A stretch of 64,000 nt of DNA from Trypanosoma brucei (Eukaryota), in contig CM000208.1 in the NCBI GenBank assembly GCA_000002445.1, forward strand, positions 2,144,001 through 2,208,000. Direction: 5' to 3'. Each line of letters starts with the position of its first letter. Position 1 is the first letter of the stretch. The position numbers were made by a program, and so were the translations under genes. Below, piece after piece: positions 5,839 through 45,844 of this stretch. The notes under the pieces are model-generated. The model was not told where the DNA came from and searched no databases. It saw only the letters and a list, made by a program, of their open reading frames with translations.

Positions 5839-5873
<35 letters not shown>

Positions 5874-6094
5874 CAAACATTTCTATTTCTATGTGCGATT
5901 CCATCGTGACGTTCAGCGCAATCAGTTCACGAGTGGTAGCTGACTACCGCAACCCCTTTTTTTGTTGCACGACTCATTTAGTGTTTGAATTGCATTTCCC
6001 CCCCTTTGTGTGTGTATGTGTCATGTCATTTACCCATTTGTATCCTTTTCTTTTTGTTTTTAATGCTTCCCTCCCCCCGGTCTCATAAGTGAAA

Positions 6095-6943
6095 ATGGGC
6101 ATGCATGAAGGGGCTACGGAGGTTTTCCAGGCCCTTGCAGTTGCGCCGCAAGAGCGCCTGGAATCATTCCTTTCCCTATTCACGGAATTGTGTCCCGCGG
6201 AATGCGCGCTCCTCGCGCTTCGTGAGCAACAACAACAACAAAGTAGCAGCAAGGCGGCCACTGATATGGCGGGGGCGTCATTTACAGCTGAAGACGGCGA
6301 TTTCGCAGAAAATGTTTGGCGACGCTTTAGAGAGCGGCAGGATCATAATGATGCCAATGGGACGAACTCTCACATATCAGAAGCAATGGAAGGTGAGTTG
6401 GAGGTTGTAGAGCTCGATGAAAGCACGGCTTGCAGGACGAGCTCCATGACTGCATTTCTCGAGCATGGTATGACGGATGTGGTGCCAACCGTTGGCGTAT
6501 TCGTTGAAGGTTTGCAAGAGGAATTGGAAAAAAATCGTGAAGGTAAGGAGATGGAGGGAGACCCCGCGGAACCTGCTGAAGAAAGTGGAACAAATATTCT
6601 GCAGGAGGTCAATGGCGAGGGGTCCGTGGGGTATGGCGGTGTTGCGTTTGAAGGGGGTCCATCAAGTGACTCGGCGTCTGATGCAGTTTCTGTTGAATCT
6701 CAGGAGAGTTCTCGCTCTGACATTAGTTTTGGAGACATCAACTTACCTGGCATCTCCGCAAGTGGTGAATCCAAGGGTGAAGTGCCAACGCCATGCCCTC
6801 ATGTGTTTCTGAAAGCTGATGAAGTCAAGGGGTTGGAGGTGGATGAAGATTACGTGCAACCATTCGCGTTGGATCCATATTTTGATTACGAAGCGACTAT
6901 CGTTGGAAAGTCCGTTAGGCTTCACCCCCGTGAATTTGTGTGA
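6095..6943 (+). CDS. Acidic hypothetical protein with a short poly-Gln run
   Basis: The ORF-track start at 6089 is GTG; the first ATG is at 6095. A polypyrimidine tract plus AG lies just upstream (6040-6088). Composition is acidic (D/E-rich) with a QQQQQ run. No recognisable domain, so the coding status rests on ORF length and upstream splice-signal context. Confidence 0.4.
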   Translation: MGMHEGATEVFQALAVAPQERLESFLSLFTELCPAECALLALREQQQQQSSSKAATDMAGASFTAEDGDFAENVWRRFRERQDHNDANGTNSHISEAMEGELEVVELDESTACRTSSMTAFLEHGMTDVVPTVGVFVEGLQEELEKNREGKEMEGDPAEPAEESGTNILQEVNGEGSVGYGGVAFEGGPSSDSASDAVSVESQESSRSDISFGDINLPGISASGESKGEVPTPCPHVFLKADEVKGLEVDEDYVQPFALDPYFDYEATIVGKSVRLHPREFV

Positions 6944-16217: not shown

Positions 16218-16820
16218 CCTTCACATAGTTACGTTCCCTGTGGTCGCGCTGTGACCGCATTTATTATTATAATTTTGTTCGCTTTCACACACCTCTTTTA
16301 TTTCTCCCCGCGTTTTTACTAACCGTGAGGTGGAGCAAAGGCATGTATTCGGCGAGACATTGATTACTTAAACTCGAGAAGAGCATAAATTAAACTTGAT
16401 TTCACTTGTGTGCTTTTCCGTACGGGACTTCGCTTTTTTTTTTTTAAAGTCGCTTCAACCTGTCTGTTATTTGCTGATTGACTAAATTCTTTTATTTTTT
16501 TTCCCCCTTTTCATCCTCTTCTTCTTAGAGACCCCAAGCACTGAAGGCTTGCGGTTACTCACGCAAAACATTTTTTTTTGTTTTGTATCATTTGGGTCAG
16601 AGGCAGTAAAACACCAAGAGGGGGGAAAAAAAAAGAAGAGCAGTTAAAAACAAAACAAAGCAACGACAGAAATAATAATAGTAATAATAGAAAAGAAGTA
16701 GAGCGGAAACGATACCAGAAAAAATAGAAGTGATAAGTAACTGTGTCAACAGTGAACATCGACAGAAGGAGGAAGTAACAGCGACGGCGAGTGGAGAGAG
16801 GGAAAGTTATTAATATAGAT

Positions 16821-17450
16821 ATGTTCCGCGCTTGTTTGCGTTTTCTAGCTGTGAGTCCCTTCACACTTTTTATGATGGATCAAAAAAACAATCCCGCACT
16901 GAAGGGATGTGCTATCTCTAAGAGAGGGAAATTACTCTCTAAGATGTATAAGGAACTCTCGCAAAACCAACGGCGTGAACTTAATATGCGTGCCGCCCGC
17001 CATCCGAACCTTGGGAAGCGGTCGAAGACAGAAATAACTGATGAAAAGCGCTCGTCGCGTCGCAAGAGCAAAGGAACTTTCGCAACGTTTGTGAAGAATA
17101 ACTACGCATCAGTGCGTGGATTGAATTATCGCAAGCGGTTTGCAGCACTTTCCAAGTTATATAACTTATCCCGGCCTATACAAATGGAGGAAGTAATTAA
17201 AAGTATGCCAAAAGGGCATTCCCTTGCTGCGTTGCCTGGAGGAAAGGGTTCCGCTAGTGTTAAGGCAAAAGAGAAGGAAGTAGTAATAGCGAAGGCAGTT
17301 CAGGACGCTAGTGAAATGTTGCGAGCGGCGCAAAAAGAAGGGGGAAAATCCGATACAAGTGAAAAGAAACCAACACGGAAGGGACGGGGAGCACCGAAAA
17401 AGGAAGAGAAACCAACTCAAAAAGAAAAGAAGGTAACGAAAAAAAAGTGA
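16821..17450 (+). CDS. Basic HMG-box-like DNA-binding protein with a mitochondrial-type presequence (KAP-like kinetoplast-associated protein; paralogue of the 40.5-43.9 kb genes)
   Basis: The ORF-track start at 16791 is GTG; the first ATG gives 'MFRACLRFLAVS', a typical kinetoplastid MLR-type presequence. The box 'LFMMDQKNNPALKGCAISKRGKLLSKMYKELSQNQRRELNMRAA' is paralogous to 'LFMKEQKNNPALKGLPVAKRGQATAKLYRELSVTEREELAKRAK' at 40.6 kb. The C-terminus is K-rich. Confidence 0.55.
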   Translation: MFRACLRFLAVSPFTLFMMDQKNNPALKGCAISKRGKLLSKMYKELSQNQRRELNMRAARHPNLGKRSKTEITDEKRSSRRKSKGTFATFVKNNYASVRGLNYRKRFAALSKLYNLSRPIQMEEVIKSMPKGHSLAALPGGKGSASVKAKEKEVVIAKAVQDASEMLRAAQKEGGKSDTSEKKPTRKGRGAPKKEEKPTQKEKKVTKKK

Positions 17451-20518: not shown

Positions 20519-20949
20519 TCATCATTATTTTCGTTTCTTCAAGCTACCCTATTCATGAGCTCTTGTTACTCTGCTTTTTTTTTTTTGAAAGAAGCAAAAG
20601 TGAAGAACAACGCGTTTGCCAAAAAAGCAACAACAGATAAACAAACATAAATAACAAACGTTGTAGAGGCAAAACGGACAAAATAAAGGACGGCCGAATA
20701 AAGGGGGAGGATCCAACAAAATATAGAACAAACAGACGGGCAAAAGCTGTCGAGCGGGTAGATAAATAAGTTCACCCCTTTTCAAAGGGGGAAAAGGAAA
20801 GAAGAAACCAAACAGCCAACCAGGCAATCAAAAGGGCGTGAGTCACCCTGTGGTTATTGAAAGGAAACAAAAAAAAAAGAAAAAAAATTAGAGGCTGAAG
20901 AGGTGCGTTGGTGGCACGGGTTCGGGTGAGGAAGTGAATAGAACTGCAT

Positions 20950-20985: not shown

Positions 20986-22284
20986 ATGAACGCGCCTCAC
21001 AGAACTCCCGGCAGCAATTCCGCTGGGAATACCGGCCCCGGGTCACACCGGTCCCGCTGCATTAGTTTAGATCCACGGGTTCATGAACACATTCCACCGC
21101 ATTTCCTACCGAATTTGGCCAAATACAAATATAGCGGTAGTGACTCTGGCATAATTTCGAACTATGTCATGCAGCCATACTGGAACTTTATCGTAAGTCT
21201 TGTTCCCATGACTGTCGCGCCCAACGCCATTACCGTCACGGGGTTTGTGATGTGCCTCTCTTCTGCGCTTTTGGTTATGTTCTTTTACTACTTCGGAAAT
21301 GCCGAGTATCCTTGTTGGGTGTGGCTGTATGCCGTCATATGCCTTTTTGCGTACCAGACACTTGATGCAATAGATGGAAAACAGGCCCGTCGTACTAATA
21401 CGGGGTCACCACTTGGTGAATTGTTTGACCATGGGTGTGACGTCATATTAACACCTTTTGTACAAATGATGATATGCTGTGCTCTAAATACGCCTCCCTG
21501 TGTTACCTTTGTGTACATCACACTCTCATCATGCGCAGTCTTTGGTGCCATCTGGGAGCAGTTTGTCACCGGTACACTTGACTTCGGTTACGTCAATGGT
21601 CCCACTGACGGCATATTGCTCGCGTGCGGTATTTTTCTCATCACAGCCATCATGTCACCAGCCGTGTGGGATACTCAAGTGGCTGGACCTTACGAGGTGC
21701 CGTTGCCGTCATGGTTAGGCAGTTGCGGTGGCTCGTTCGTGATTGGATCAGTGCGGAGTATGTTATTTACCTTTTATGTGGTATCTGGGACTCTGACACT
21801 GCTAACAAACATATTGCATGTTTTAAAAAGGCCAAACATTCAGAAACCTGGTATGGCCGTGACAACTGCCCTACCGGTTGTCTGCTTGCTGGTACTTCAC
21901 GTCTGGATGTATCTGGTTTACCGCCCCATCCATGAGAAGTATCCATATGCACTGGAGTTGAGTTTTCACGTTTTGATATCTTACACTGCCACACGCATGA
22001 CTGTTTCCAGGTTGTGCGCAATGCCGTTTAACCTTTTCAGTGGGTTGTTTATCATTACACTACTCTTCACTGTTGCTCCGCTCTTCATCCACACCTACTT
22101 GCCTCTTGCTGAGGAAAAATATGTATTGCCATCACTTGGCTCCGCCACAGTGGCGCTTGCAGTACTGGGGTTCTGGCAGTACTTCCATATGATTCTTTCC
22201 GTTATCACACAGATGGCGTACTTTCTTCGCATTTCGGTTTTTTCTATTACATCGCGTCATGACTCCAACACGAAGTGGGAGTAG
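20986..22284 (+). CDS. Choline/ethanolamine phosphotransferase (CDP-alcohol phosphatidyltransferase family)
   Basis: The motif 'DAIDGKQARRTNTGSPLGELFDHGCD' matches D-G-x2-A-R-x8-G-x3-D-x3-D exactly. The 432-aa ORF has about 8-10 TM helices, the size and topology of eukaryotic CPT/EPT/CEPT enzymes. A long T-run polypyrimidine tract precedes the ATG. Confidence 0.85.
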   Translation: MNAPHRTPGSNSAGNTGPGSHRSRCISLDPRVHEHIPPHFLPNLAKYKYSGSDSGIISNYVMQPYWNFIVSLVPMTVAPNAITVTGFVMCLSSALLVMFFYYFGNAEYPCWVWLYAVICLFAYQTLDAIDGKQARRTNTGSPLGELFDHGCDVILTPFVQMMICCALNTPPCVTFVYITLSSCAVFGAIWEQFVTGTLDFGYVNGPTDGILLACGIFLITAIMSPAVWDTQVAGPYEVPLPSWLGSCGGSFVIGSVRSMLFTFYVVSGTLTLLTNILHVLKRPNIQKPGMAVTTALPVVCLLVLHVWMYLVYRPIHEKYPYALELSFHVLISYTATRMTVSRLCAMPFNLFSGLFIITLLFTVAPLFIHTYLPLAEEKYVLPSLGSATVALAVLGFWQYFHMILSVITQMAYFLRISVFSITSRHDSNTKWE

Positions 22285-25200
22285 GAGTTGCATTGATTTT
22301 GCTGACTTTGCAATGTGGTGTTGAAATTATTGGTGAAAGGGATGTGGGGAAGTTGAGACCCTAGGCACTATCATCACTAGATCACAAAAAGAGAAAGTAG
22401 CTGTTGATTGGTGAATCAATTAAGAGGAACCATCAACTGTATGTGCGTCTGTGAGTAGTGGGAACGGTAGTGAAGTGGTCTTAACATATGATGTAAACCA
22501 AAGATGGTTTTTCCATCTTCTTTTTTCTTTTTTTCCCCCGTTGGAGTCAAGGGAGGGAGGGAGGGGGGGGGGGGGAATAGGAAACAGGGAGAGAATAGAA
22601 GAAAGGAGTGGAAAGGTGGGAAGGTTTAGAGAAGCGGTGAGTTGAAGGAGAGGCATGCTAAGAAGATGGAGGGAAAAGTTGAGTGTCTTGTTTGTGCCTC
22701 TTATCGATTGTTCCGTTTTCTGCTTTTGCTTTTTTATCATTGATGGTACAATTTTATCTTTTCGTAAAATATGCGTCGCTTGGTTAGTTGTTGCTGTTTT
22801 TTTTTTCCTTCCTTCACTTCGCGGAGATTGCACCGTAGCAGTGGTGAGCAGTTGGGAAAAGGGGAAAAACAAAGAGGAAAAAAAGGAACGAAGGTGTAGT
22901 CGAGGAAGTAACGCGGAGGAAAGGAATATGAAGCAAATACAAGCACAACAAGAACAGGAGATGTGTTGTATATCTAAATAATAATACTAATAATAAGGAA
23001 AAAGGCATTGAAGGAAAGAGTTCGAGATAAATCTATTTCTCACTATTTGTCCAATCTCACCTTTTGCGTGTTACTACGGGAGGGCGCCGTTGCGGGAAGG
23101 GAATTCCGAACTACTTTTGAATGACCGGATTTTTTCTTTTTTTTTAAAAAAAACTTTCCTCAGCTGGTATTATAGCTGCATAACTTACTGTTTTGTTTCG
23201 TTGTGTCTTTTTTTTTTTTTTAAATGACCATCGCCTTATATCACCCTCTTTTCTCAGCATGTGCTTTTATGGAGGGTTTGAGTGGAGAGAGGGCGGTTGT
23301 GTTTCGGTTTCGGTTCCACAAACTAGTCGTACGTTTATATACGCGTATGTATATATATATATATATATATATCAGTATGCAATTATGTGTATGTATTTCC
23401 ACGTGTATATTTGTAAGTGAATCGGGTCTAATTACTTCCTCTCCAATCAAAATGGGCTTATGCTGTTGTCAGGTTGCGGTTTCTTCGTCTGCTTTAACGC
23501 TGATTTTTCACATATTTACTCTGATTGCTTCTCTGTTCGGTTTGTTTGTGTTACTTTTCTTCTTTCTTTCTTTTCTTTTCCTTTTTTCATCTTTATCTTT
23601 TTTTTTTCGCATTATTTGTTGTTCATGTTGTGGCTGATGTTGGTTATTTTTCCGCCTGGGTTGTGGGAGGACCACCGAACTTTTCCCTCATCTCCCGCTC
23701 TAGGCGCATGTTCTGTACTTTATTTCCTGTTTTTTTTTTTTTTGGTCTTCGTCTTCATTCCTCTTTTCTTTTCCACGTGCTTATTTCACTTTGTTGTTGA
23801 ACAACACTGTCCTTGTTGTACTGCGGTTATGCACACGCCAACAGCTCGCCTTCAGGTATAAATTTTATGCGGCCTGTCAATATGGTGTGGTGGATGTTGT
23901 GTTAACTTCGACCTTTACTTTTATAATTTTATAATTATAAAATTCTCTACTTTTCTACTGTTTTGTTTTGTTTAGTTTTGTTTTTTTTTTTTTTTCACCA
24001 CGCGTGCCGTTGTTTGTGTTTTGCAGAGGGTTCTGACGTCTCTCACGATATGCATCCGTTTGCATTCTTACTGTTCTTATACATTTGTTGTTAGTTTGTT
24101 TTTGTCGACGAATGCGACTCGATTTTTTTTTCCCCCTTTTTCCCTTTATTTCCTCTTCTTTTTTTCCTTTTCCTTTTCCCCTTTCATCAATCCTCTTTTC
24201 GTTTTTTATGATCAATTCAAATAAAACATGGCTTTGGTTTTGGGAGGATGGGGGGAGGAGAAGTGTAGACATGTTGGGGAAGTGAATTAAAATGAAATTG
24301 AGGAGTGGATGGTGGTGATGTTGAAATGGAAATGAGAAATGAGAAAAGCGTCCACTTGTGCCACACACACACACATATGCATAAGGGTGGGAGGGGGGTG
24401 CAATTTTTTTTTTTTTTTCGTGGCATGCTCATGGGGAAAGACGTTTCTTGAGAACATGTTGTTGTTTATTGTTGCCATTGTTGTGTTTAACACCGTTTAA
24501 ATTTTTGTTTCCTCCTGTTTTCTTTACCTTTTCACTCAGCACAGTAAAATTGGAGCGTTGGGCAAATAAGTGTGACAAGGGAGAGAGGAAGAAGAAGAAG
24601 AAAAAAAAAAGGGAGTTCCGTAAGACAAACATTAATATGAGTGAATCAACATTTGTTGGTGTGACTGTTTACATGCACATGTTCTTTGAGGAGTTCTTTC
24701 CGTTTGACACACTTTCAGTTCGATGCTTTTTTTTTTCCTTTCTCTCATGTTGGTGCTGTTAAAACACAGGCGGTGTGGTTCTATTTTCATACGGATAAGG
24801 GGTGTAATTTAAAGAAGTAATATGTGGGGATATGAAGGGAGAAAGAACGAGGGATAGGATTCAAACAACATATTGTTGTGAAAATAAAAATAAGTGTGAT
24901 AAGCAATTGAGCACTCCAGTGCCTTGCCTGGCGCTGTTACCCCTAAGTTTGAATTGAGATAGAGTGTCAAAAACGGTAAGTGGCCACCAGAAAACGAAAC
25001 AAAGGGGAAAAGATGGGTTAAACTAACGGAAAATGCAAAAAAAAAATGAATGGGGAACCTCTTGTGTGTTGTTATGTCTCTTGTCATGCCCGCACGGGAT
25101 GTGACCAACTGGTTGACACCCAGAATTGATGGTTAAAGAGAGATTCTGTAACTTTCTGTTCAAACTAAAGCCCTGGTGACTGACCGATATCGCGTATGCC

Positions 25201-35525: not shown

Positions 35526-36788
35526 AAGGTGGAATGTGTTGATGCCGATCATTTCTTCAGTATTTGTTTCCCTGTATTTACCACCCTCTCAATTCACTTG
35601 TTGTTTCATGTTTTCTTTATGTCACCTCAACTGTTGTGCGCGTGGCTTCGTCGCCATTTTGGTTGTCAAGTGCAGATGGTAGAGGGAGGAAAAAGGCGCA
35701 CACTTCAGTTGAGCGCTCGTTTCACTATGTATTCTATCACCTTCTTCTGTTTTGTTTTTCATTTTTCGCTACTTCAATGTGTACATGTCGTCGATGATTA
35801 ATTCTTCCCGATGTGTGCTCCTATGTATGTCTGTGAGCAGGAGGGAAAGGGCGGGTGTGATGCTTGGAGGTAACAAAAAAAAAAAAGAATCGGTAGCTTG
35901 CCTTCTTCTTTCCCTCCTTCGAAGAACAACGAGCGCCTGCTGCAAAAACAATTTTTTCTCTGTTTTGCATTTAGAAGGTTGTTTCTTCAGTTATGTCGCA
36001 GAAATGTAGGTCCGACAATCTTCTTTTCTTTTTCTTTTATCTCGTTTTGTAGATCTCTACCACATGTGCGTATGCCAAAGGTGTAATTAAAGCAGGTAGG
36101 AGGAACGAGAGGAAGGAGAAAAAAAAAAGAACATAGATTTATATTGTTCCCCTACATCGGAGCAGACTACGTCTGTAATATGCGGAACCAACCTTCTCTG
36201 CACTTTACTGTAAATGTCTGCGAGATCACGTGATGTACACAAATTGGCTGCGTTCCTCTCACCACGTTGGATGCTGGAAAGGACACACAAACGAGGACAG
36301 AGAAACAATAACAACAACAAAAAAAAGAAAAGAAGCAACAACTTATGATGACAATATTATTTCTTACTTTCTGATCCGTGATTTGATTGACACAAGCACT
36401 GTCTGTGCGAACGTATCGAGAACCTGATTATATTGTCTTTAAAAATCCCCTCCTTTACATTATTTCCCTCCTTTACCTTATTTTCCTATCTCTTATACAT
36501 GACGAGACCGAACGGTAACTCTCTGGAAACTCATCCCCTCTTTTCTGTAGATGTGTTTCCTCATCGGTTCCCGGAGAAACCCTTTACGAGTTTCCTTCAG
36601 CGCAACTCAAACTGTCTGTTGGATTGTTGTTTAGTTTTAGGACCAACCTTGTGGGTTTATGTGGAAGAATGAGATTGAGAAAAAAGGTATGACGATTGTT
36701 TTATCGATATGTTTTGTGTCTATTTCTCCCCTCTTTTACTGCACTTGCCTTCATTCGTGTTTTCTTCACGTTGGTTTTTTTCCCACCG

Positions 36789-40312: not shown

Positions 40313-40346
<34 letters not shown>

Positions 40347-40397
40347 TATACTGTACCTCCTGCATTTGTCTTACGCGATGCTTGCAGGCCGCTACTG

Positions 40398-40933
40398 CTT
40401 GACGACCCATGATGCTCCCACAAGGCATATAGAGTGGTTGCCCTTATATTTCCATTCCCGTCACTATCTTCTCTCTTTTTTTCTTTTTTCTTTCCTTTTT
40501 TTCTTTCCCTGTGTTGTGTGTGTGTGTCAAACAGAAAAAGGAAACAAAGCTCCGGCAATGCTTCGTGTTTCTCGATTATCCCTTGCCATTGGCACGTACA
40601 GCCTGTTCATGAAGGAGCAAAAGAATAATCCCGCATTGAAGGGACTCCCCGTAGCAAAGCGGGGTCAGGCAACGGCTAAGTTATATCGAGAGCTTTCTGT
40701 CACTGAGCGTGAGGAATTGGCAAAGCGTGCCAAAGCTGCTCCGTCTGCAACGAGGAAAAAATCGGTACCGAAAACAAAAGGTAAAGAAAAGGTTACAGGA
40801 GGGGGAGGCAAACGTAAGGCATCGGAGTACACCGAATTTGTGAAGTCCAACATATCCAAATACAGTAATCTTCCACAACGGGAGCGCATGACTGCCGTAG
40901 CAAAGCTGTGGAAACAGCAGAAACAGATGCGAA
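40398..40933 (+). repeat. 536-bp direct repeat, copy 1 (identical to 43393-43928)
   Basis: By eye the two copies are identical from 'cttgacgacccatgatgctccc' to 'gaaacagcagaaacagatgcgaa'. Each covers a polypyrimidine tract, the (GT)6 run, the AG acceptor region and the whole KAP-like CDS up to its last codon. The offset between copies is 2995 bp. Confidence 0.8.
40430..40556 (+). promoter_or_regulatory. Polypyrimidine tract, (GT)n and AG upstream of KAP-like copy 1, duplicated at 43425-43551
   Basis: ccattcccgtcactatcttctctctttttttcttttttctttcctttttttctttccctgtgttgtgtgtgtgtgtc aaacag. It lies inside the 536-bp repeat, so both copies share identical processing signals. Confidence 0.5.
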
Positions 40934-40938
40934 AGTAG
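40558..40938 (+). CDS. Small basic HMG-box-like protein with a mitochondrial presequence (KAP-like kinetoplast-associated protein), copy 1 of an identical pair
   Basis: The ORF-track start at 40366 is TTG; the first ATG gives 'MLRVSRLSLAIGTYSLFMKEQKNNPALKGLPVAKRGQATAKLYRELSVTEREELAKRAK...SEYTEFVKSNISKYSNLPQRERMTAVAKLWKQQKQMRK'. It has an MLR-type presequence, an HMG-box-like helix pattern, and is K/R-rich. The CDS and 160 nt of 5' flank are duplicated exactly at 43393-43928. Confidence 0.6.
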   Translation: MLRVSRLSLAIGTYSLFMKEQKNNPALKGLPVAKRGQATAKLYRELSVTEREELAKRAKAAPSATRKKSVPKTKGKEKVTGGGGKRKASEYTEFVKSNISKYSNLPQRERMTAVAKLWKQQKQMRK

Positions 40939-42316
40939 ATCGAATCGCTTCATTATGCCGTGGAAAGCGGGAGTATTTTCATCTTTTTTTGTTTTTTTTT
41001 ACGTGTTGTTCACCTGGCCCGCTGTTGGAGCCAAGACATGAGTGTCTTTTTTGTTGTGGAAAGCGAGACAGAAATATGCTTTTCAAGGAAACTCACGTTC
41101 GCATAGTAGAGTCAATTTTTCAATGTCGAACTGAAAGAGGATACAAAAGATAGAGAAAAGTAGAGAAAGAGAGAGGTAGAGATAAAAAGAAACTCTTGTT
41201 TTGAAGTTTCGAATGGATATATAAGTTTCTATTTATATATCTGCTTATATCTGTCTGATAGAATTATTCATTTTCCCTTTTTTTTTATGTTGGTTGGAAG
41301 TGAGCGGATGAAGCAATATTCTTTTTTCTGTTTGTTTTACACTTCTTCGCTGACCCCTTCTATTTTTGATTCTGTTGCTAATTATAGAGGGTTTCTGTTG
41401 TGGATACTTGTGGGTGAGTGAGTGGGTTTGTATAAGTTTTTACCCTACACCTTTCACTCTACTTAGCGTGTCTTGTCGATTGCATTCTGTTCGGCAGAAT
41501 TCCCCCAACAAAAATATATTCACACCTTTTTTAAAAAAAAAAAATTGGTTCCACATCACACACATGCTGCGCACGGGATGTCAACTTTCCCAACCGACTA
41601 ACTAACTCCTCTCTATTTTTGAGCCTTTTTCCGTACCTTTGCCGTTGCTCTTCTTCTTCTTCATGTTTCTGTTGATTGTGTGCAAGATAGCTTTCACTGG
41701 TGGATTTAGGCAATTTTCAAAGGAATTGCGGTAACGGAAACATCTAACGAAGGCAGTGTGTACAGTCTCATTACTAGCATTGGCGTCTGTTTAAATCAAT
41801 AAATCAATATATATATATATTAAATTGCTTTAGTTTTGGCTCGTGTCTGTGCAGATCAGCCTTGTAGTAAAGGTGGTTACAGCACAGGGTAGGGGTCACT
41901 GAGAGAAGCATTGGAAAAAATTTACAACTGTAGTCATAACTACTTATCCATACAAGCATATACGAACATAGAGCTTTTTGTTTACTTTTTGCGTACCTCC
42001 ATAAGACGCAACCGCAGGGATCAAGTCCAACAAGGAGCGTTGAACGAAGCAACGGGAACTCGTCGGCACCGCCTTGTCGTCGGGTCTTTCTTGCGCTCGT
42101 CAGTGGTGGGAGAAAAAGGAAACATATCTTCACCACCACTTCCACGAGTTCCACTGACAGTTTGGTCACTTGCAACCGGTCGCACTATAGAATTTTTACT
42201 ATCACAGAAATATAGCTGTGGAGCATCGTAGTTGCATAACTGTTTATTTCTTTTTCGTCGTCGCACAAGAACAGCAATTAGGAGGGTGAAGAACACGTGC
42301 TACATTATCTTCTCGC

Positions 42317-43030
42317 ATGTTGCGTTTTACGGTTGCGCTGTGCAGCATTCGCAAAATGGCTTTAAAGCTCTTCCGCGATGAGCAATTACATAGTGCTAAC
42401 CTGCAGGGTCTCTCGATGGCTCAGAAGCGAAAAGTTATTGAAAAGAAGTTTAATCATCTTGGACGGAATGAGATGAGAGTTCTGAGACAGCGGGCTCGTG
42501 AAATGCATGACAATGTGGTGTTAGCGGCGGGTGCGGGTGCGGGTGCGGGTAAGGGTGATTTTCAACCAAGACACCCAAAGATAACCGCATATGAACTGTT
42601 CTTTAAGGAACAGTCATCAAACCCATCCATATCTTCCATTACATCCCCCAGACTGCGCGAGAAGCGAGTTTTTGCCATATTTCAAACATTACCCGAGAAG
42701 ACACGAAAACAATTGGAAGAGAGGGCTGAGCAACTCTCACAAAGCGGTGGGCAACGGAAAATTTCCCCCGCTGTAAAGGTACCAAAACCAAAGAAGGAAA
42801 TACAGACAAAGGCATCGAAGAAGGCGCCCACCAAACGAACTGCAGCTAAGAAAAAGCAGAAACCTTCTACTTACAGGGCGTTTGTAAAGGAACAAATGCC
42901 TCTCTTAAAGCACCTTCCGCCGGCTGAACGCATTAAAACCATCGCAAAGAAGTGGAAGGCACAAAAGGGTGAGAAGAAACCTACCAAACGGACTGGACCA
43001 TCTGAGAACAAGGCAGCAGGCAAAAAATAA
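42317..43030 (+). CDS. Two-HMG-box-like basic protein with a mitochondrial-type presequence (KAP-like), divergent paralogue lying between the duplicated genes
   Basis: 'MLRFTVALCSIRK' presequence. Box 1 is 'YELFFKEQSSNP...RVFAIFQTLPEKTRKQLEERAEQ'; box 2 is 'YRAFVKEQMPLLKHLPPAERIKTIAKKWKAQK'. K-rich linker and tail, 237 aa. Confidence 0.6.
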   Translation: MLRFTVALCSIRKMALKLFRDEQLHSANLQGLSMAQKRKVIEKKFNHLGRNEMRVLRQRAREMHDNVVLAAGAGAGAGKGDFQPRHPKITAYELFFKEQSSNPSISSITSPRLREKRVFAIFQTLPEKTRKQLEERAEQLSQSGGQRKISPAVKVPKPKKEIQTKASKKAPTKRTAAKKKQKPSTYRAFVKEQMPLLKHLPPAERIKTIAKKWKAQKGEKKPTKRTGPSENKAAGKK

Positions 43031-43392
43031 CCCAAATGGGTTTTGTCCAGCCTCGGACTTTTTGTTTGTTTTGAACGGCCATTGAAGGCTCATGGGAAAG
43101 AGAGAGTGGAATATCGAAGAATAGCTGCAGCAGTTGGCACAACAAACTCCCGTGTAACTTTATGCACGCTGTTAGAGGGGTGACTCATAGGTAATGCGCA
43201 GAGCATATGCGAATATGTACGGTGGTGCTAGCATGGCTTGTCAAGAAGGAAAATAGGACCACCGCCACTGTACATTTGTCACATTCAAAATATGTTGCCA
43301 TTCTCATTAAATCGAAGTTGTTAAAACTTTTGTGCTGGTGGAAGAATTTCAGCAGTATGACTTCTTTCTGCTGCGTGGTTTAGTGTATTTTA

Positions 43393-43928
43393 CTTGACGA
43401 CCCATGATGCTCCCACAAGGCATATAGAGTGGTTGCCCTTATATTTCCATTCCCGTCACTATCTTCTCTCTTTTTTTCTTTTTTCTTTCCTTTTTTTCTT
43501 TCCCTGTGTTGTGTGTGTGTGTCAAACAGAAAAAGGAAACAAAGCTCCGGCAATGCTTCGTGTTTCTCGATTATCCCTTGCCATTGGCACGTACAGCCTG
43601 TTCATGAAGGAGCAAAAGAATAATCCCGCATTGAAGGGACTCCCCGTAGCAAAGCGGGGTCAGGCAACGGCTAAGTTATATCGAGAGCTTTCTGTCACTG
43701 AGCGTGAGGAATTGGCAAAGCGTGCCAAAGCTGCTCCGTCTGCAACGAGGAAAAAATCGGTACCGAAAACAAAAGGTAAAGAAAAGGTTACAGGAGGGGG
43801 AGGCAAACGTAAGGCATCGGAGTACACCGAATTTGTGAAGTCCAACATATCCAAATACAGTAATCTTCCACAACGGGAGCGCATGACTGCCGTAGCAAAG
43901 CTGTGGAAACAGCAGAAACAGATGCGAA
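43393..43928 (+). repeat. 536-bp direct repeat, copy 2
   Basis: See copy 1. The sequence diverges 1 nt after 'gatgcgaa' (a in copy 1, g in copy 2), which changes the C-terminal residue(s) and the whole 3' flank. Confidence 0.8.
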
Positions 43929-43936
43929 GTAAGTGA
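43553..43936 (+). CDS. Small basic HMG-box-like KAP-like protein, copy 2 (identical to 40558-40938 except the last codons)
   Basis: The ORF-track start at 43394 is TTG; the first ATG is MLRVSRLS. The translation is identical to copy 1 through ...KQQKQMR, then ends SK* where copy 1 ends K*. The duplication ends at the stop codon, so the 3' flank differs. Confidence 0.6.
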   Translation: MLRVSRLSLAIGTYSLFMKEQKNNPALKGLPVAKRGQATAKLYRELSVTEREELAKRAKAAPSATRKKSVPKTKGKEKVTGGGGKRKASEYTEFVKSNISKYSNLPQRERMTAVAKLWKQQKQMRSK

Positions 43937-44610
43937 TATTCTTCACCTACTGTCACTATGGTGTTGGTCGTTTCCCTAACAATAGAAACTGAGCTTGTCA
44001 CAGCACTTGATACGAAGCGTGTTACAGGTAACTGAGTGTAGTTTCGAACACGTTTACTCGAGTCGGTACGTGGAAGTCGTAAAGTTAGACATTACGTGAA
44101 ATGTTGCAATCCGGCGGTAGCGCTGCCGCAACAGTTTGTTTAATCACCCACAAGCCGAAGGGGTACAGGAACGTGTGAGGGCAAAGAAAATAAAAATAAA
44201 AAAGAGATACATAGAACAAAAAAAACAGATATTCCGGAAGCACGAGCAAAAGCCGAGAGTGGGGCGTACTTAGAACGAAATAGATAGAAACGTGGGTCGC
44301 CACCCCCTTCGCTCCTACTGCATCACTCATATACCTGAAAATACAATCGAAAATGACATGATGCAGCTGTAGCTGCGGTGCATACTATGTTTATTGTTAT
44401 TTTGTACCGCCTTATATATTTGATTCACTTTGTATCACTACTTTTGCCTCATTTGCTTTTCTTCCCCCAACTGTGTAATGGAGGTGCCCACCACCTACAC
44501 ATCCAACCAAGTTAGCAGCAAGGTTATTTGAAGCTATACTCTCCGTTACAAAGTTGATTAAGTAACGCATATTTTTGTTCAGGAAATCCTTTAATAATCG
44601 ATAGGAAGTG

Positions 44611-45120
44611 ATGTTGCGCTTTACACGTTTTGTTGCTGCTGCTGTGAAGAGCGGCGTTGGCAAAAAAGCCGCTAAGACACCACTGCCTGTGGGGAATGCT
44701 GCGAGTGCCAGACGTGGCGCCCGTGTTGATGCCATTCCGTTTAATGACAATGTGTCTGTACCTAAGGTAAATGCCAAAAAGATGGTACCACCTCCAAGTG
44801 TAAGCAACATTGGCAAAGAAAAGGCTGTTTCTTCCATGAAGGCGAGGGGAGGTGCCAAAGTTAATGCGAAACCACTGGCATCCTTAGGAAAGGTTACGAG
44901 TGAGAAGCCAAGTGGCAAGGTAAAGAAGACGCCGTCACCTACGAGGAAACCAACAGAACCTATTACTGTGGTGGAGACATCCTCCGGTAGGAAGGGTGGT
45001 AACAAGGCTGCGTCTTTGGCACCGAAGTTGAAGAAAACTGTGAAGCAAATCCACCGTAAGGTCATGCAAAAAAATGCTGGCCGTAAGCCCAAGAAGGCGA
45101 TGGGTAAGGCGAGTGCTTAA
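44611..45120 (+). CDS. Lysine/alanine-rich basic protein with a mitochondrial-type presequence (histone H1-like KAP candidate)
   Basis: The ORF-track start at 44608 is GTG; ATG at 44611 gives 'MLRFTRFVAAAVKSGVGKKAAKTPLPVGNAASARRGARV...'. About 25% K/R, no hydrophobic core. A 226-aa minus-strand ORF (44412-45092) overlaps it but is Leu/Ala/Phe low-complexity and against the transcription direction. Confidence 0.5.
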   Translation: MLRFTRFVAAAVKSGVGKKAAKTPLPVGNAASARRGARVDAIPFNDNVSVPKVNAKKMVPPPSVSNIGKEKAVSSMKARGGAKVNAKPLASLGKVTSEKPSGKVKKTPSPTRKPTEPITVVETSSGRKGGNKAASLAPKLKKTVKQIHRKVMQKNAGRKPKKAMGKASA

Positions 45121-45844
45121 TGCCACATAACAAATAGAATTATGTGAGTGTGAATGAACATATCACATCTGCGTGTGGAAGTAAAGTGGGGTGGGTGATG
45201 ATAGAGGTGCGGAGGGTAGGCGGGAGTATGCAGGTTCCGGGGACTACTGACTAGCGCACTCATGTGTTAGTGGTGTATTACCTTAATACTTGTTGCTTCT
45301 TTTTTCATCCTGTCCTTACCACCACCCAACTCTATTGTTTTCTTTTTCCTTTTCATCGGGTTATCCCGTTGACGCTAGGCGTCACTCAATAGATGCATTT
45401 CCCTGTTGTCGTCGTTTCTTATTTTGTGATATATTTTGTGTAGTCATAGAGTGTTTGAGCATATCACAATGACTTGTGTGCGCGTCTTTTCTTTTCACGT
45501 TTTCGATTATGAGGGAACACACCGTCATTTTGATCACTCAAGAGGGTATCCGCTCACTCGCAGCGTTTCAAGTAACTGCATGAATATGTTATCTTTTTAA
45601 TTTTCTTACCGCTCCTGTTCAGAAATCGACAAATTTTTATTTGTCGATTACACTGTTCTCTTTGTCACAGAAGCATTAATAGATATTTAAATTTTTTTGA
45701 TATTATGTTGCTCTGTTTTTATTGAGGTATTTTCACAATTGATATTTATTCCTTTATTTTCTATTTATCACTTTTTCTTTTTTTGTCCTTTCTGATGTTT
45801 TGTATTTCAGCCAAGGGTTTTCCTTCGTCGGCAAAGGTTTGACG

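What the first reader, a model, noticed from the sequence alone, without database searches (positions are those of the whole stretch)
40398..45120. Cluster of kinetoplast-associated-like basic DNA-binding protein genes, including an exact 536-bp tandem duplication with divergent 3' flanks
Within 4.7 kb there are three HMG-box-like genes with MLR-type mitochondrial presequences. The order is copy A at 40558-40938, a divergent two-box paralogue at 42317-43030, and copy A' at 43553-43936, followed by a lysine-rich H1-like gene with an 'MLRFTRF' presequence at 44611-45120. A fourth HMG-box paralogue sits at 16821-17450. Copies A and A' are identical over 536 bp, from 160 nt upstream (polypyrimidine tract and AG) through the penultimate codon. 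Identity stops exactly at the stop codon, so the two identical proteins carry different 3' flanks, presumably including their 3' UTRs. In trypanosomes 3' UTRs are the main determinants of mRNA abundance and stage regulation. The arrangement therefore looks like a dosage or differential-regulation device for a kDNA-packaging protein rather than a simple tandem array.
Basis: partly seen in the sequence, partly recalled or inferred. Interest (0 to 1): 0.6.

Follow-up and report, generated by a model that had tools for sequence, protein, structure and literature searches.

The report
Known trypanosome KAP4–KAP7–KAP4 gene cluster
This is the already annotated Trypanosoma brucei chromosome 10 cluster of mitochondrial-DNA packaging genes (KAP4-1, KAP7, KAP4-2, Tb927.10.8980), in which the two KAP4 copies are kept near-identical by gene conversion but carry unrelated 3' UTRs and, in published data, are expressed in the same pattern.

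Summary
Window 40398-40933 and 43393-43928 are an exact 536-bp direct repeat, 2,995 bp apart. It runs from 160 nt upstream of the ATG to the codon before the stop.

The window is T. brucei TREU927 chromosome 10. The genes are KAP4-1 (Tb927.10.8950), KAP7 (8960), KAP4-2 (8970), the kDNA-localised Tb927.10.8980, and KAP6 (8890) at 16821.

Three corrections:
- The repeat flanks KAP7, so it is not tandem.
- The proteins differ at the C-terminus (…MRK versus …MRSK).

Cavalcanti et al. 2009 already described KAP4a-KAP7-KAP4b in T. brucei and T. cruzi and proposed one old duplication homogenised by gene conversion. My strain and species comparisons agree with that.

Kolev et al. 2010 mapped separate poly(A) sites, giving unrelated 3' UTRs of 593 and 412 nt.

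Differential regulation is not supported. 3'-UTR-resolved single-cell data (Briggs 2021) place both copies in the same cell-cycle cluster and the same differentiation module, at near-equal detection. Doubled dosage with concerted evolution fits best.

Already known; low interest.

The parts
40398..40933 (+). Repeat copy 1: 160 nt upstream region plus the KAP4-1 CDS up to the first base of the last sense codon
   Evidence: Exact 536-bp identity with 43393-43928. Same boundaries in T. b. equiperdum and T. b. gambiense.
43393..43928 (+). Repeat copy 2: 160 nt upstream region plus most of the KAP4-2 CDS
40467..40534 (+). Polypyrimidine tract, (TG)n run and AG trans-splice acceptor of KAP4-1; an identical element lies at 43462-43529 for KAP4-2
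   Evidence: Sequence. Kolev 2010 Table S1 maps the spliced-leader acceptor site at chr10 2184535, which is window 40535.
40535..40557 (+). 23-nt 5' UTR of KAP4-1; the identical stretch 43530-43552 is inferred to be the 5' UTR of KAP4-2
   Evidence: Mapped acceptor site lies inside the annotated 186-aa ORF, so the true ATG is 40558. Cavalcanti 2009 also flagged the start as wrong.
40558..40938 (+). KAP4-1 (Tb927.10.8950, TbKAP4.1, XP_823119), 126 aa, pI 10.8
40939..41531 (+). 3' UTR of KAP4-1: 593 nt, 38% T, no canonical cycling-sequence heptamer (only GATAGAA at 41257)
   Evidence: Major poly(A) site at 2185531, which is window 41531 (Kolev 2010 Table S13). Composition and motifs.
42317..43030 (+). 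KAP7 (Tb927.10.8960, XP_823120), 237 aa: an extra N-terminal box-like module (residues 1-61) followed by a complete KAP4-like unit (residues 89-217)
   Evidence: BLASTP against KAP4-2 gives E=7e-12 for residues 89-217 and E=4e-4 for residues 1-61.
43553..43936 (+). KAP4-2 (Tb927.10.8970, TbKAP4.2, XP_823121), 127 aa
43937..44348 (+). 3' UTR of KAP4-2: 412 nt, A-rich, unrelated to the KAP4-1 3' UTR
   Evidence: Major poly(A) site at 2188348, which is window 44348. No similarity between the two UTRs.
43981..43987 (+). Cycling-sequence-like heptamer AATAGAA in the KAP4-2 3' UTR
   Evidence: Conserved in T. b. equiperdum and T. b. gambiense.
44210..44216 (+). Cycling-sequence-like heptamer CATAGAA in the KAP4-2 3' UTR
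44611..45120 (+). Tb927.10.8980: 169-aa lysine/alanine-rich protein (pI 11.7) with MLRFTRFVA N-terminus; not a KAP4 paralogue
   Evidence: Reported as kDNA-localised when tagged; RNAi gave a growth defect without a kDNA defect. Depleted on TAC102, HMG44 and KAP68 RNAi.
45121..45688 (+). 3' UTR of Tb927.10.8980 (568 nt), with AATAGAA at 45133
   Evidence: Major poly(A) site at 2189688, which is window 45688. Motif.
16821..17450 (+). TbKAP6 (Tb927.10.8890), 209 aa, a KAP4 paralogue with a C-terminal extension; two cycling-sequence-like heptamers lie upstream at 16686 and 16723
   Evidence: BLASTP against KAP4-2 gives E=1e-22. Motifs.

Best explanation
The region is the T. brucei KAP4-1 / KAP7 / KAP4-2 / Tb927.10.8980 cluster on chromosome 10. 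KAP6 lies 23 kb upstream in the same Pol II polycistron.

KAP4 is a 14-kDa basic protein with pI 10.8. It has a nine-residue MLR presequence, one complete HMG-box-like three-helix module (residues about 13-60), a disordered basic linker, and a truncated second box (two helices, residues 90-126). The inferred function is import into the mitochondrion and binding and compaction of kinetoplast DNA, as shown for orthologues in Crithidia, T. cruzi and Angomonas.

The two KAP4 genes descend from an old duplication around KAP7. Recurrent gene conversion keeps them near-identical. In T. brucei the converted tract covers the 5' processing signals, the 5' UTR and the CDS, and it stops at the last one or two codons, where homology ends. 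Each copy therefore keeps its own unrelated 3' UTR and its own poly(A) site.

Both mRNAs are made. Both peak around late G1/early S, when kDNA replicates, and both fall together on differentiation to stumpy forms. The most likely functional outcome is a doubled dose of one protein from two co-regulated genes, not two differently regulated genes.

Shown here or in cited data: the repeat and its limits, gene identity, the mapped splice and poly(A) sites, co-expression, conserved gene order, and site patterns typical of concerted evolution.

Inferred: DNA binding by the HMG-like fold, cleavage of the presequence, dosage as the selected benefit, and any role for the cycling-sequence heptamers.
For: Identity of the genes. 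Exact protein look-up gives EAN78291-78294 and EAN78285 of T. brucei TREU927, named kinetoplast DNA-associated proteins. Cavalcanti 2009, additional file 1, lists XP_823119 as TbKap4.1, XP_823121 as TbKap4.2, XP_823120 as TbKap7 and XP_823113 as TbKap6. Current names are 'KAP4 isoform 1' and 'KAP4 isoform 2'. TbKAP6 is Tb927.10.8890.

Fold.
- The AlphaFold2 model has helices at 13-20, 32-44, 48-60, 90-102 and 107-126.
- Nearly all of the top 50 Foldseek hits are HMG boxes, although the best E-value is only 0.074.
- Orthologues give weak Pfam hits to YABBY (3e-6), HMG_box_2 (3e-3) and HMG_box (0.02).

Concerted evolution.
- Gene order is KAP4-KAP7-KAP4(-KAP4) in T. cruzi and T. melophagium.
- Paralogues are closer within a species (99% in T. 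brucei, 82-88% in T. cruzi and T. melophagium) than between species (57-75%).
- The three T. melophagium copies show a block-wise mosaic.
- The T. brucei copies are 98.7% identical in T. b. equiperdum, 98.2% in T. b. gambiense and 100% in TREU927, always with the same boundaries.
- Variants at 40788 and in the polypyrimidine tract are strain-specific but shared by both copies. TREU927 copy 1 carries copy-2-type bases at 40401, 40459, 40761 and 40926.

Transcripts. The acceptor site maps to window 40535. Poly(A) sites map to 41531 and 44348. The two 3' UTRs share no similarity.

Co-regulation.
- Briggs 2021 counted uniquely mapped reads against extended 3' UTRs.
- Both copies are unique markers of cluster LS A.1, with logFC 0.51 and 0.56 and detection of 0.331/0.068 and 0.348/0.074.
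- Both are in module B, and both are cell-cycle differentially expressed (p=1e-7 and 3e-11).
- Archer 2011 unique reads for 8950 peak in late G1, with amplitude 1.63 log2 on unique plus multi-mapping reads.
Against: - No direct test of DNA binding or localisation of T. brucei KAP4 was possible here.
- The T. brucei sequences themselves fail Pfam HMG_box, and a profile search of PDB sequences found nothing significant.
- T. vivax has only one KAP4 next to KAP7. The duplication is therefore either not universal in Trypanosoma or was lost there.
- The 100% identity in TREU927, against 98.2-98.7% in other strains, could in principle reflect consensus-calling in the assembly and not a recent conversion.
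- Co-regulation has been seen only in bloodstream slender/stumpy cells and, for one copy, in procyclic cell-cycle data. Tsetse stages and a direct bloodstream-versus-procyclic comparison of the two 3' UTRs were not found.
- The canonical cycling heptamer is present only in the KAP4-2 3' UTR. The two UTRs must therefore reach similar regulation by different elements, or the heptamers are irrelevant.
Confidence: 0.8

Rival explanations
1. Regulatory sub-functionalisation. Selection keeps one protein sequence under two different 3' UTRs so that the copies are expressed at different life-cycle stages or cell-cycle phases.
For: - The two 3' UTRs are unrelated, of different length and composition (593 nt with 38% T; 412 nt with 33% A).
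- Canonical cycling-sequence heptamers occur only in the KAP4-2 UTR, and they are conserved in three T. brucei subspecies.
- Homology ends at the stop codon in every species examined.
- KAP4-2 is absent from the Archer 2011 table of transcripts with more than 300 reads, whereas KAP4-1 is listed.
Against: - Single-cell 3'-end data that separate the copies show the same cluster, the same module, and near-equal detection and fold change.
- Unique reads for KAP4-1 also peak in late G1.
- Divergent flanks around converted coding regions are common in T. brucei duplicated genes and need no special selection (Jackson 2007).
- The position of cycling-sequence motifs relative to the KAP4 copies is not conserved in T. 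cruzi, T. melophagium or T. vivax.
Confidence: 0.15
2. Recent, lineage-specific duplication of KAP4 in the T. brucei group. High identity would then simply reflect youth, not gene conversion acting on an old duplicate.
For: - T. vivax has a single KAP4 followed by KAP7.
- Identity in T. brucei extends 160 nt upstream. In T. cruzi and T. melophagium the KAP4a/KAP4b homology starts only about 20 nt upstream of the ATG.
Against: - The same KAP4-KAP7-KAP4 order occurs in T. cruzi and T. melophagium.
- An orthologue table lists two genes with an intervening gene number in T. congolense, and three genes in Paratrypanosoma.
- Flanks outside the 536 bp are entirely unrelated. A young segmental duplication would not produce this.
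- Strain-specific variants shared by both copies require exchange after the duplication.
Confidence: 0.08
3. Assembly artefact: one real gene was duplicated by mis-assembly, or two slightly different copies were given one consensus sequence.
For: - The closely related T. equiperdum OVI assembly shows a single hybrid copy, with copy 1's 5' flank and copy 2's 3' flank, and no KAP7 at the locus.
- TREU927 is the only assembly examined in which the copies are 100% identical.
Against: - Two copies are present in at least five other assemblies, including chromosome-scale ones.
- Distinct poly(A) sites and uniquely mapped reads exist for both copies.
- OVI does encode KAP7, under a non-adjacent locus tag (TEOVI_000552700 versus TEOVI_000287800 for the 169-aa gene). 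Its single-copy locus is therefore probably the collapsed one.
Confidence: 0.02

Closest known systems
KAP4 (kinetoplast-associated protein 4) of Crithidia fasciculata, T. cruzi (TcKAP4) and Angomonas deanei
   Same: - Orthologous family. T. brucei XP_823119 and XP_823121 are listed as TbKap4.1 and TbKap4.2.
- Protein identity to other Trypanosoma KAP4s is 55-65%.
- Size is about 14 kDa and pI about 10.8.
- It has an MLR-type nine-residue presequence.
- It lies next to KAP7 in all genomes examined.
   Different: - T. brucei has two copies that are 98-100% identical at the DNA level. Leishmania has one, and T. cruzi has three copies at 90-95%.
- I found no functional study of T. brucei KAP4. 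Localisation and knockout data come from other species.
TbKAP6 (Tb927.10.8890), an HMG-box kDNA protein essential for kDNA replication and maintenance (Wang et al. 2014, as summarised in PMC10719067)
   Same: - It is a paralogue in the same window (16821-17450), 37% identical to KAP4 over 119 residues, E=1e-22.
- It has the same box-plus-truncated-box layout.
- Its mRNA peaks in late G1, and it marks the same single-cell cluster.
   Different: - KAP6 is single-copy.
- It has an MFR N-terminus and an extra C-terminal tail of about 90 residues.
- It has a demonstrated RNAi phenotype.
Mitochondrial HMG-box DNA packaging proteins Abf2p (yeast) and TFAM (human)
   Same: - Foldseek aligns about 124 columns to the two-box Abf2p.
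- All are basic proteins that package mitochondrial DNA.
   Different: - Sequence identity is only 8-18%.
- The second box of KAP4 is truncated to two helices.
- There is no significant sequence-profile match to any solved HMG protein.
- Common descent, as opposed to convergence on a small helical fold, is not established.
Concerted evolution of duplicated genes in T. brucei with divergent flanks (Jackson 2007, BMC Evol Biol 7:54; the PGK array as the classic case of copy-specific 3' UTR control)
   Same: - The coding region is homogenised by gene conversion while the flanking non-coding sequence is unrelated.
- The duplicates are separated by another gene.
   Different: - For the KAP4 pair, the available data show co-regulation, not the stage-specific expression seen for PGKB and PGKC.
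- I did not find this pair discussed in the main text of Jackson 2007.
Crithidia KAP2/KAP3 tandem pair and cycling-sequence (CAUAGAAG) control of S-phase mRNAs
   Same: - kDNA protein mRNAs peak just before or at S phase.
- [CA]AUAGAA heptamers are concentrated in the KAP6, KAP4-2 and 8980 UTRs: 5 of 11 plus-strand matches fall within 1.8 kb. The Poisson P of about 2e-5 is post hoc.
   Different: - KAP2 and KAP3 are a different KAP clade. T. brucei KAP3 is on chromosome 11.
- KAP4-1 cycles without a canonical heptamer.
- The function of the heptamers here is untested.

Membership tests
KAP4 family of kinetoplast-associated proteins | Sequence orthology to characterised KAP4 proteins (CfKAP4, TcKAP4) | tested here: met
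   Homologue search returns Trypanosoma 'kinetoplast DNA-associated protein' and 'Kinetoplast-associated protein 4' at 55-65% identity, E 1e-31 to 1e-41. Cavalcanti 2009 lists the two accessions as TbKap4.1 and TbKap4.2.
KAP4 family of kinetoplast-associated proteins | Small, strongly basic, lysine/alanine-rich protein | tested here: met
   14.2-14.3 kDa, pI 10.77, K 16.6%, R 8.7%, A 10.2%.
KAP4 family of kinetoplast-associated proteins | N-terminal nine-residue cleavable presequence beginning M-L-R | tested here: inconclusive
   The N-terminus MLRVSRLSL fits the described pattern: MLR start, hydroxylated fifth residue, hydrophobic ninth residue. Cleavage and import cannot be tested with these tools.
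KAP4 family of kinetoplast-associated proteins | Conserved position next to KAP7 | tested here: met
   KAP4 is adjacent to KAP7 in T. brucei subspecies, T. cruzi, T. melophagium and T. vivax.
KAP4 family of kinetoplast-associated proteins | Localisation to the kDNA disc and binding to kDNA | not testable with these tools
   Published for the Crithidia, T. cruzi and A. deanei orthologues. T. brucei KAP4 was detected by mass spectrometry among kDNA-associated proteins dependent on TAC102.
HMG-box domain superfamily | L-shaped three-helix fold | tested here: met
   [not shown]
HMG-box domain superfamily | Match to the Pfam HMG_box profile (PF00505 or PF09011) above the curated threshold | tested here: not met
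   No HMG_box hit at E<=1 for any of the five T. brucei proteins. Orthologues give only sub-threshold hits: HMG_box 0.02, HMG_box_2 0.0031, and the HMG-like YABBY C-terminal domain 3e-6. A profile search against PDB sequences found nothing significant.
HMG-box domain superfamily | Minor-groove DNA binding and bending | not testable with these tools
The literature calls KAP4 and KAP6 HMG-box-containing proteins.
Paralogues under concerted evolution by gene conversion | Paralogues more similar within a species than to positional counterparts in other species, despite shared gene order | tested here: met
   The protein identity matrix gives 99% and 82-88% within species against 57-75% between species. 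Gene order is shared.
Paralogues under concerted evolution by gene conversion | Strain-specific variants present in both copies, and mosaic tracts | tested here: met
   Position 40788 and the polypyrimidine-tract variants are shared by both copies within a strain but differ between strains. TREU927 copy 1 carries copy-2-type bases at four sites. The three T. melophagium copies show a block-wise mosaic. No formal recombination test was run.
Histone H1-like KAPs (for the 169-aa Tb927.10.8980 protein) | Sequence similarity to histone H1 or to the KAP1/2/3 proteins | tested here: not met
   No Pfam hit. No similarity to KAP4. Only the first 13-15 residues align with the genes at the same position in T. 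vivax and T. cruzi. 'H1-like' describes composition only: K 17.8%, A 13.6%, pI 11.7.

The most novel reading that the evidence does not exclude
Selection may hold the end of the gene-conversion tract at the stop codon so that one KAP4 protein is produced from two unrelated 3' UTRs that respond differently in conditions not yet sampled. Examples are tsetse stages, bloodstream versus procyclic forms, and kDNA stress. The cycling-sequence heptamers found only in the KAP4-2 UTR would then give the two copies mechanistically distinct cell-cycle control.
Probability: 0.15. Interest if true: 0.35.

Novelty: already known. Interest (0 to 1): 0.15.

Why it matters
KAP proteins package the kinetoplast DNA network, a structure found only in these parasites, so their gene dosage and timing of expression are relevant to kDNA replication. 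This locus, however, is already annotated (KAP4 isoforms 1 and 2, KAP7, KAP6). Its duplication and probable gene conversion were described in 2009. Its transcript ends were mapped in 2010. Existing single-cell data show that the two copies behave alike.

The second look adds precision:
- the exact limits of the repeat;
- the one-residue difference between the products;
- cross-strain evidence for recent homogenisation in TREU927;
- fold-level support for the HMG-like assignment;
- the observation that two unrelated 3' UTRs give similar regulation.

The last point could make a small, clean test case for how different UTRs encode the same cell-cycle pattern.

Tried and rejected
- Pfam scan of the five T. 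brucei proteins: no HMG_box hit.
- Profile search of the KAP4 alignment against PDB sequences: nothing significant.
- PUF9 motif UUGUACC at 44402: rejected as a KAP4-2 element. It lies 54 nt beyond the mapped poly(A) site, and its count in the window is at chance level.
- RBP10-type UA(U)6 motif: absent from the T. brucei UTRs at this locus.
- Positional conservation of cycling-sequence heptamers relative to the KAP4 copies in T. cruzi, T. melophagium and T. vivax: not consistent.
- Comparison of UTR and intergenic conservation between subspecies. All non-coding parts are 96.5-98.4% identical, so this gives no information about constraint.
- Look-up of the T. congolense KAP4 protein to obtain its locus: not on record.
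- Wang et al. 2014 (the TbKAP6 paper): not held in the library.
- Supplements of Briggs 2023: only an orthologue table mentioned the genes, and several files were truncated.
- The two 585-aa ORFs at 1430 and 7856 looked like another duplication but are unrelated.
- The 226-aa antisense ORF at 44412-45092 overlaps the Tb927.10.8980 CDS. I took it to be a chance ORF without testing it.

Full report
**Observation**

Window 40398-40933 and 43393-43928 are identical over 536 bp, 2,995 bp apart. This is the only long direct repeat in the 64-kb window. The listed ORFs are all present at the stated coordinates.

The repeat begins 160 nt upstream of each ATG. It includes a polypyrimidine tract, a (TG)n run and an AG.

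Two details need correcting.
- Identity ends one base into the codon after Arg125. The products are therefore ...QMRK (126 aa) and ...QMRSK (127 aa), not identical.
- The repeat is not tandem. It brackets the 237-aa gene.

**What it is**

Exact protein look-up places the window on T. brucei brucei TREU927 chromosome 10. The genes are Tb927.10.8950.8960.8970 and .8980, with Tb927.10.8890 at 16821. The match of the annotated CDS of Tb10.6k15.1480 fixes the window origin at chromosome coordinate 2,144,001.

Cavalcanti et al. 2009 (PMC2700280, additional file 1) already named these TbKap4.1, TbKap7, TbKap4.2 and TbKap6. They noted that the two KAP4 copies are interspersed by KAP7 in both T. brucei and T. 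cruzi. They proposed a single duplication followed by homogenisation through gene conversion within each species. They also flagged the wrong start codon of TbKAP4a.

[quoted passage not shown] TbKAP6 is a characterised HMG-box kDNA protein. Tb927.10.8980 has been tagged and localises to the kDNA.

**Protein family**

None of the T. brucei proteins reaches Pfam HMG_box at E<=1. A profile of ten Trypanosoma KAP4s finds no solved structure by sequence. Orthologues give only weak hits to members of the HMG clan.

Relationships among the proteins in the window:
- KAP7 is an extra box-like module fused to a complete KAP4-like unit.
- KAP6 is a KAP4-like unit with a C-terminal tail.
- The 169-aa protein is unrelated to KAP4 and is 'H1-like' only in composition.
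- All four families start with MLR or MFR presequences of the kind described for KAPs.

**Evolution**

The order KAP4-KAP7-KAP4 recurs in T. cruzi and T. melophagium, each with a third KAP4. T. vivax has a single KAP4 before KAP7. An orthologue table lists two genes in the Lister 427 2018 assembly, T. congolense and T. evansi, three in T. cruzi and Paratrypanosoma, and one in Leishmania.

Paralogues are more alike within species than between species. The three T. melophagium copies form a block-wise mosaic.

Within the T. brucei group the repeat has the same limits in all assemblies. The copies are 98.7% identical in T. b. equiperdum, 98.2% in T. b. gambiense and 100% in TREU927. Site by site, TREU927 copy 1 carries copy-2-type bases at four positions. 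Some variants are strain-specific yet present in both copies. This is the signature of continuing gene conversion.

The T. equiperdum OVI assembly shows one hybrid copy. It encodes KAP7 under a non-adjacent locus tag, so this is probably an assembly collapse.

**Transcripts and regulation**

Kolev et al. 2010 mapped the spliced-leader acceptor of KAP4-1 to window 40535. That lies inside the annotated 186-aa ORF, so the real ATG is 40558 and the 5' UTR is 23 nt. They mapped major poly(A) sites at window 41531 for KAP4-1 (3' UTR 593 nt), 44348 for KAP4-2 (412 nt) and 45688 for Tb927.10.8980 (568 nt).

The two KAP4 3' UTRs share no similarity and differ in composition.

The proposed consequence is not borne out.
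- Archer et al. 2011: reads unique to Tb927.10.8950 peak in late G1, as do those for .8980 and KAP6.
- Briggs et al. 2021: only uniquely mapped reads were counted, against extended 3' UTRs.
- In that study both KAP4 genes are unique markers of the same slender cluster, with almost equal effect sizes and detection rates.
- In that study both belong to co-expression module B, which declines towards stumpy forms, and both are cell-cycle regulated. KAP7 is only weakly regulated.

Cycling-sequence-like heptamers [CA]ATAGAA are concentrated in the UTRs of KAP6, KAP4-2 and .8980 but are absent from the KAP4-1 UTR. Their placement is not conserved in other species. I treat them as a lead only.

**Verdict**

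The finding is real and was accurately located. It is an annotated locus that has already been described. The best-supported reading is two co-regulated copies of one kDNA-packaging gene, maintained by concerted evolution. The differential-regulation idea remains possible only for conditions not yet examined.

Noticed in passing
window 36159-36225 and 36510-36579 (+): Two H/ACA snoRNA genes, TB10Cs5H2 (74.3 bits) and TB10Cs5H3 (74.7 bits). They lie between the 766-aa ORF and the 411-aa gene upstream of KAP4-1.
   Followed up: no
L004 7061-7570 and 8372-8881; L007 11294-16375: The gene downstream of KAP4-2 varies in copy number. Tb927.10.8980 is duplicated in T. b. gambiense DAL972 (1,161-bp repeat, 99.6% identical). 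The 179-aa gene at the same position in T. vivax forms a tandem array of at least four copies with a 1,485-bp period, 99.3-99.7% identical. Only the first 13-15 residues (M-L/M-R/C-FTRF...) are conserved between species.
   Followed up: partly
L003 (T. equiperdum OVI, GCA_001457755.2) 5841-6384: This assembly has a single hybrid KAP4, with copy 1's 5' flank and copy 2's 3' flank, and lacks KAP7 at the locus. OVI nevertheless encodes an identical KAP7 under a non-adjacent locus tag. This is most likely a repeat-induced assembly collapse.
   Followed up: partly
window 40378-40557: The deposited TREU927 annotation of Tb927.10.8950 (186 aa, XP_823119) starts at an upstream ATG and reads through the polypyrimidine tract. 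The mapped splice acceptor at 40535 shows that the true product is 126 aa. The same over-extension occurs in the T. b. gambiense entry, and probably in the T. congolense entry (186 and 181 aa).
   Followed up: yes
window 16686-16692, 16723-16729; 20937-20943, 22594-22600: Cycling-sequence-like heptamers sit just upstream of TbKAP6. They also flank the 432-aa CDP-alcohol phosphatidyltransferase gene (20986-22284) on both sides. Whether that gene is cell-cycle regulated was not checked.
   Followed up: no
window 40324-40351: A (TA)n microsatellite of about 13 units lies about 47 nt upstream of the left boundary of repeat copy 1. No equivalent precedes copy 2. A possible role in setting the conversion boundary was not examined.
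   Followed up: no
L007 8001-10633; L008: T. vivax has only one KAP4 gene, upstream of KAP7, and none between KAP7 and the 179-aa array. The second copy was therefore either lost there or gained after T. vivax branched off.
   Followed up: partly
window 43553-43936 (protein residues 13-44 versus 90-122): The C-terminal two-helix module of KAP4 aligns with the first two helices of its own N-terminal box. Cross-matches appear in the KAP7 and KAP6 comparisons. This suggests that KAP4 arose by internal duplication of a box followed by truncation.
   Followed up: partly
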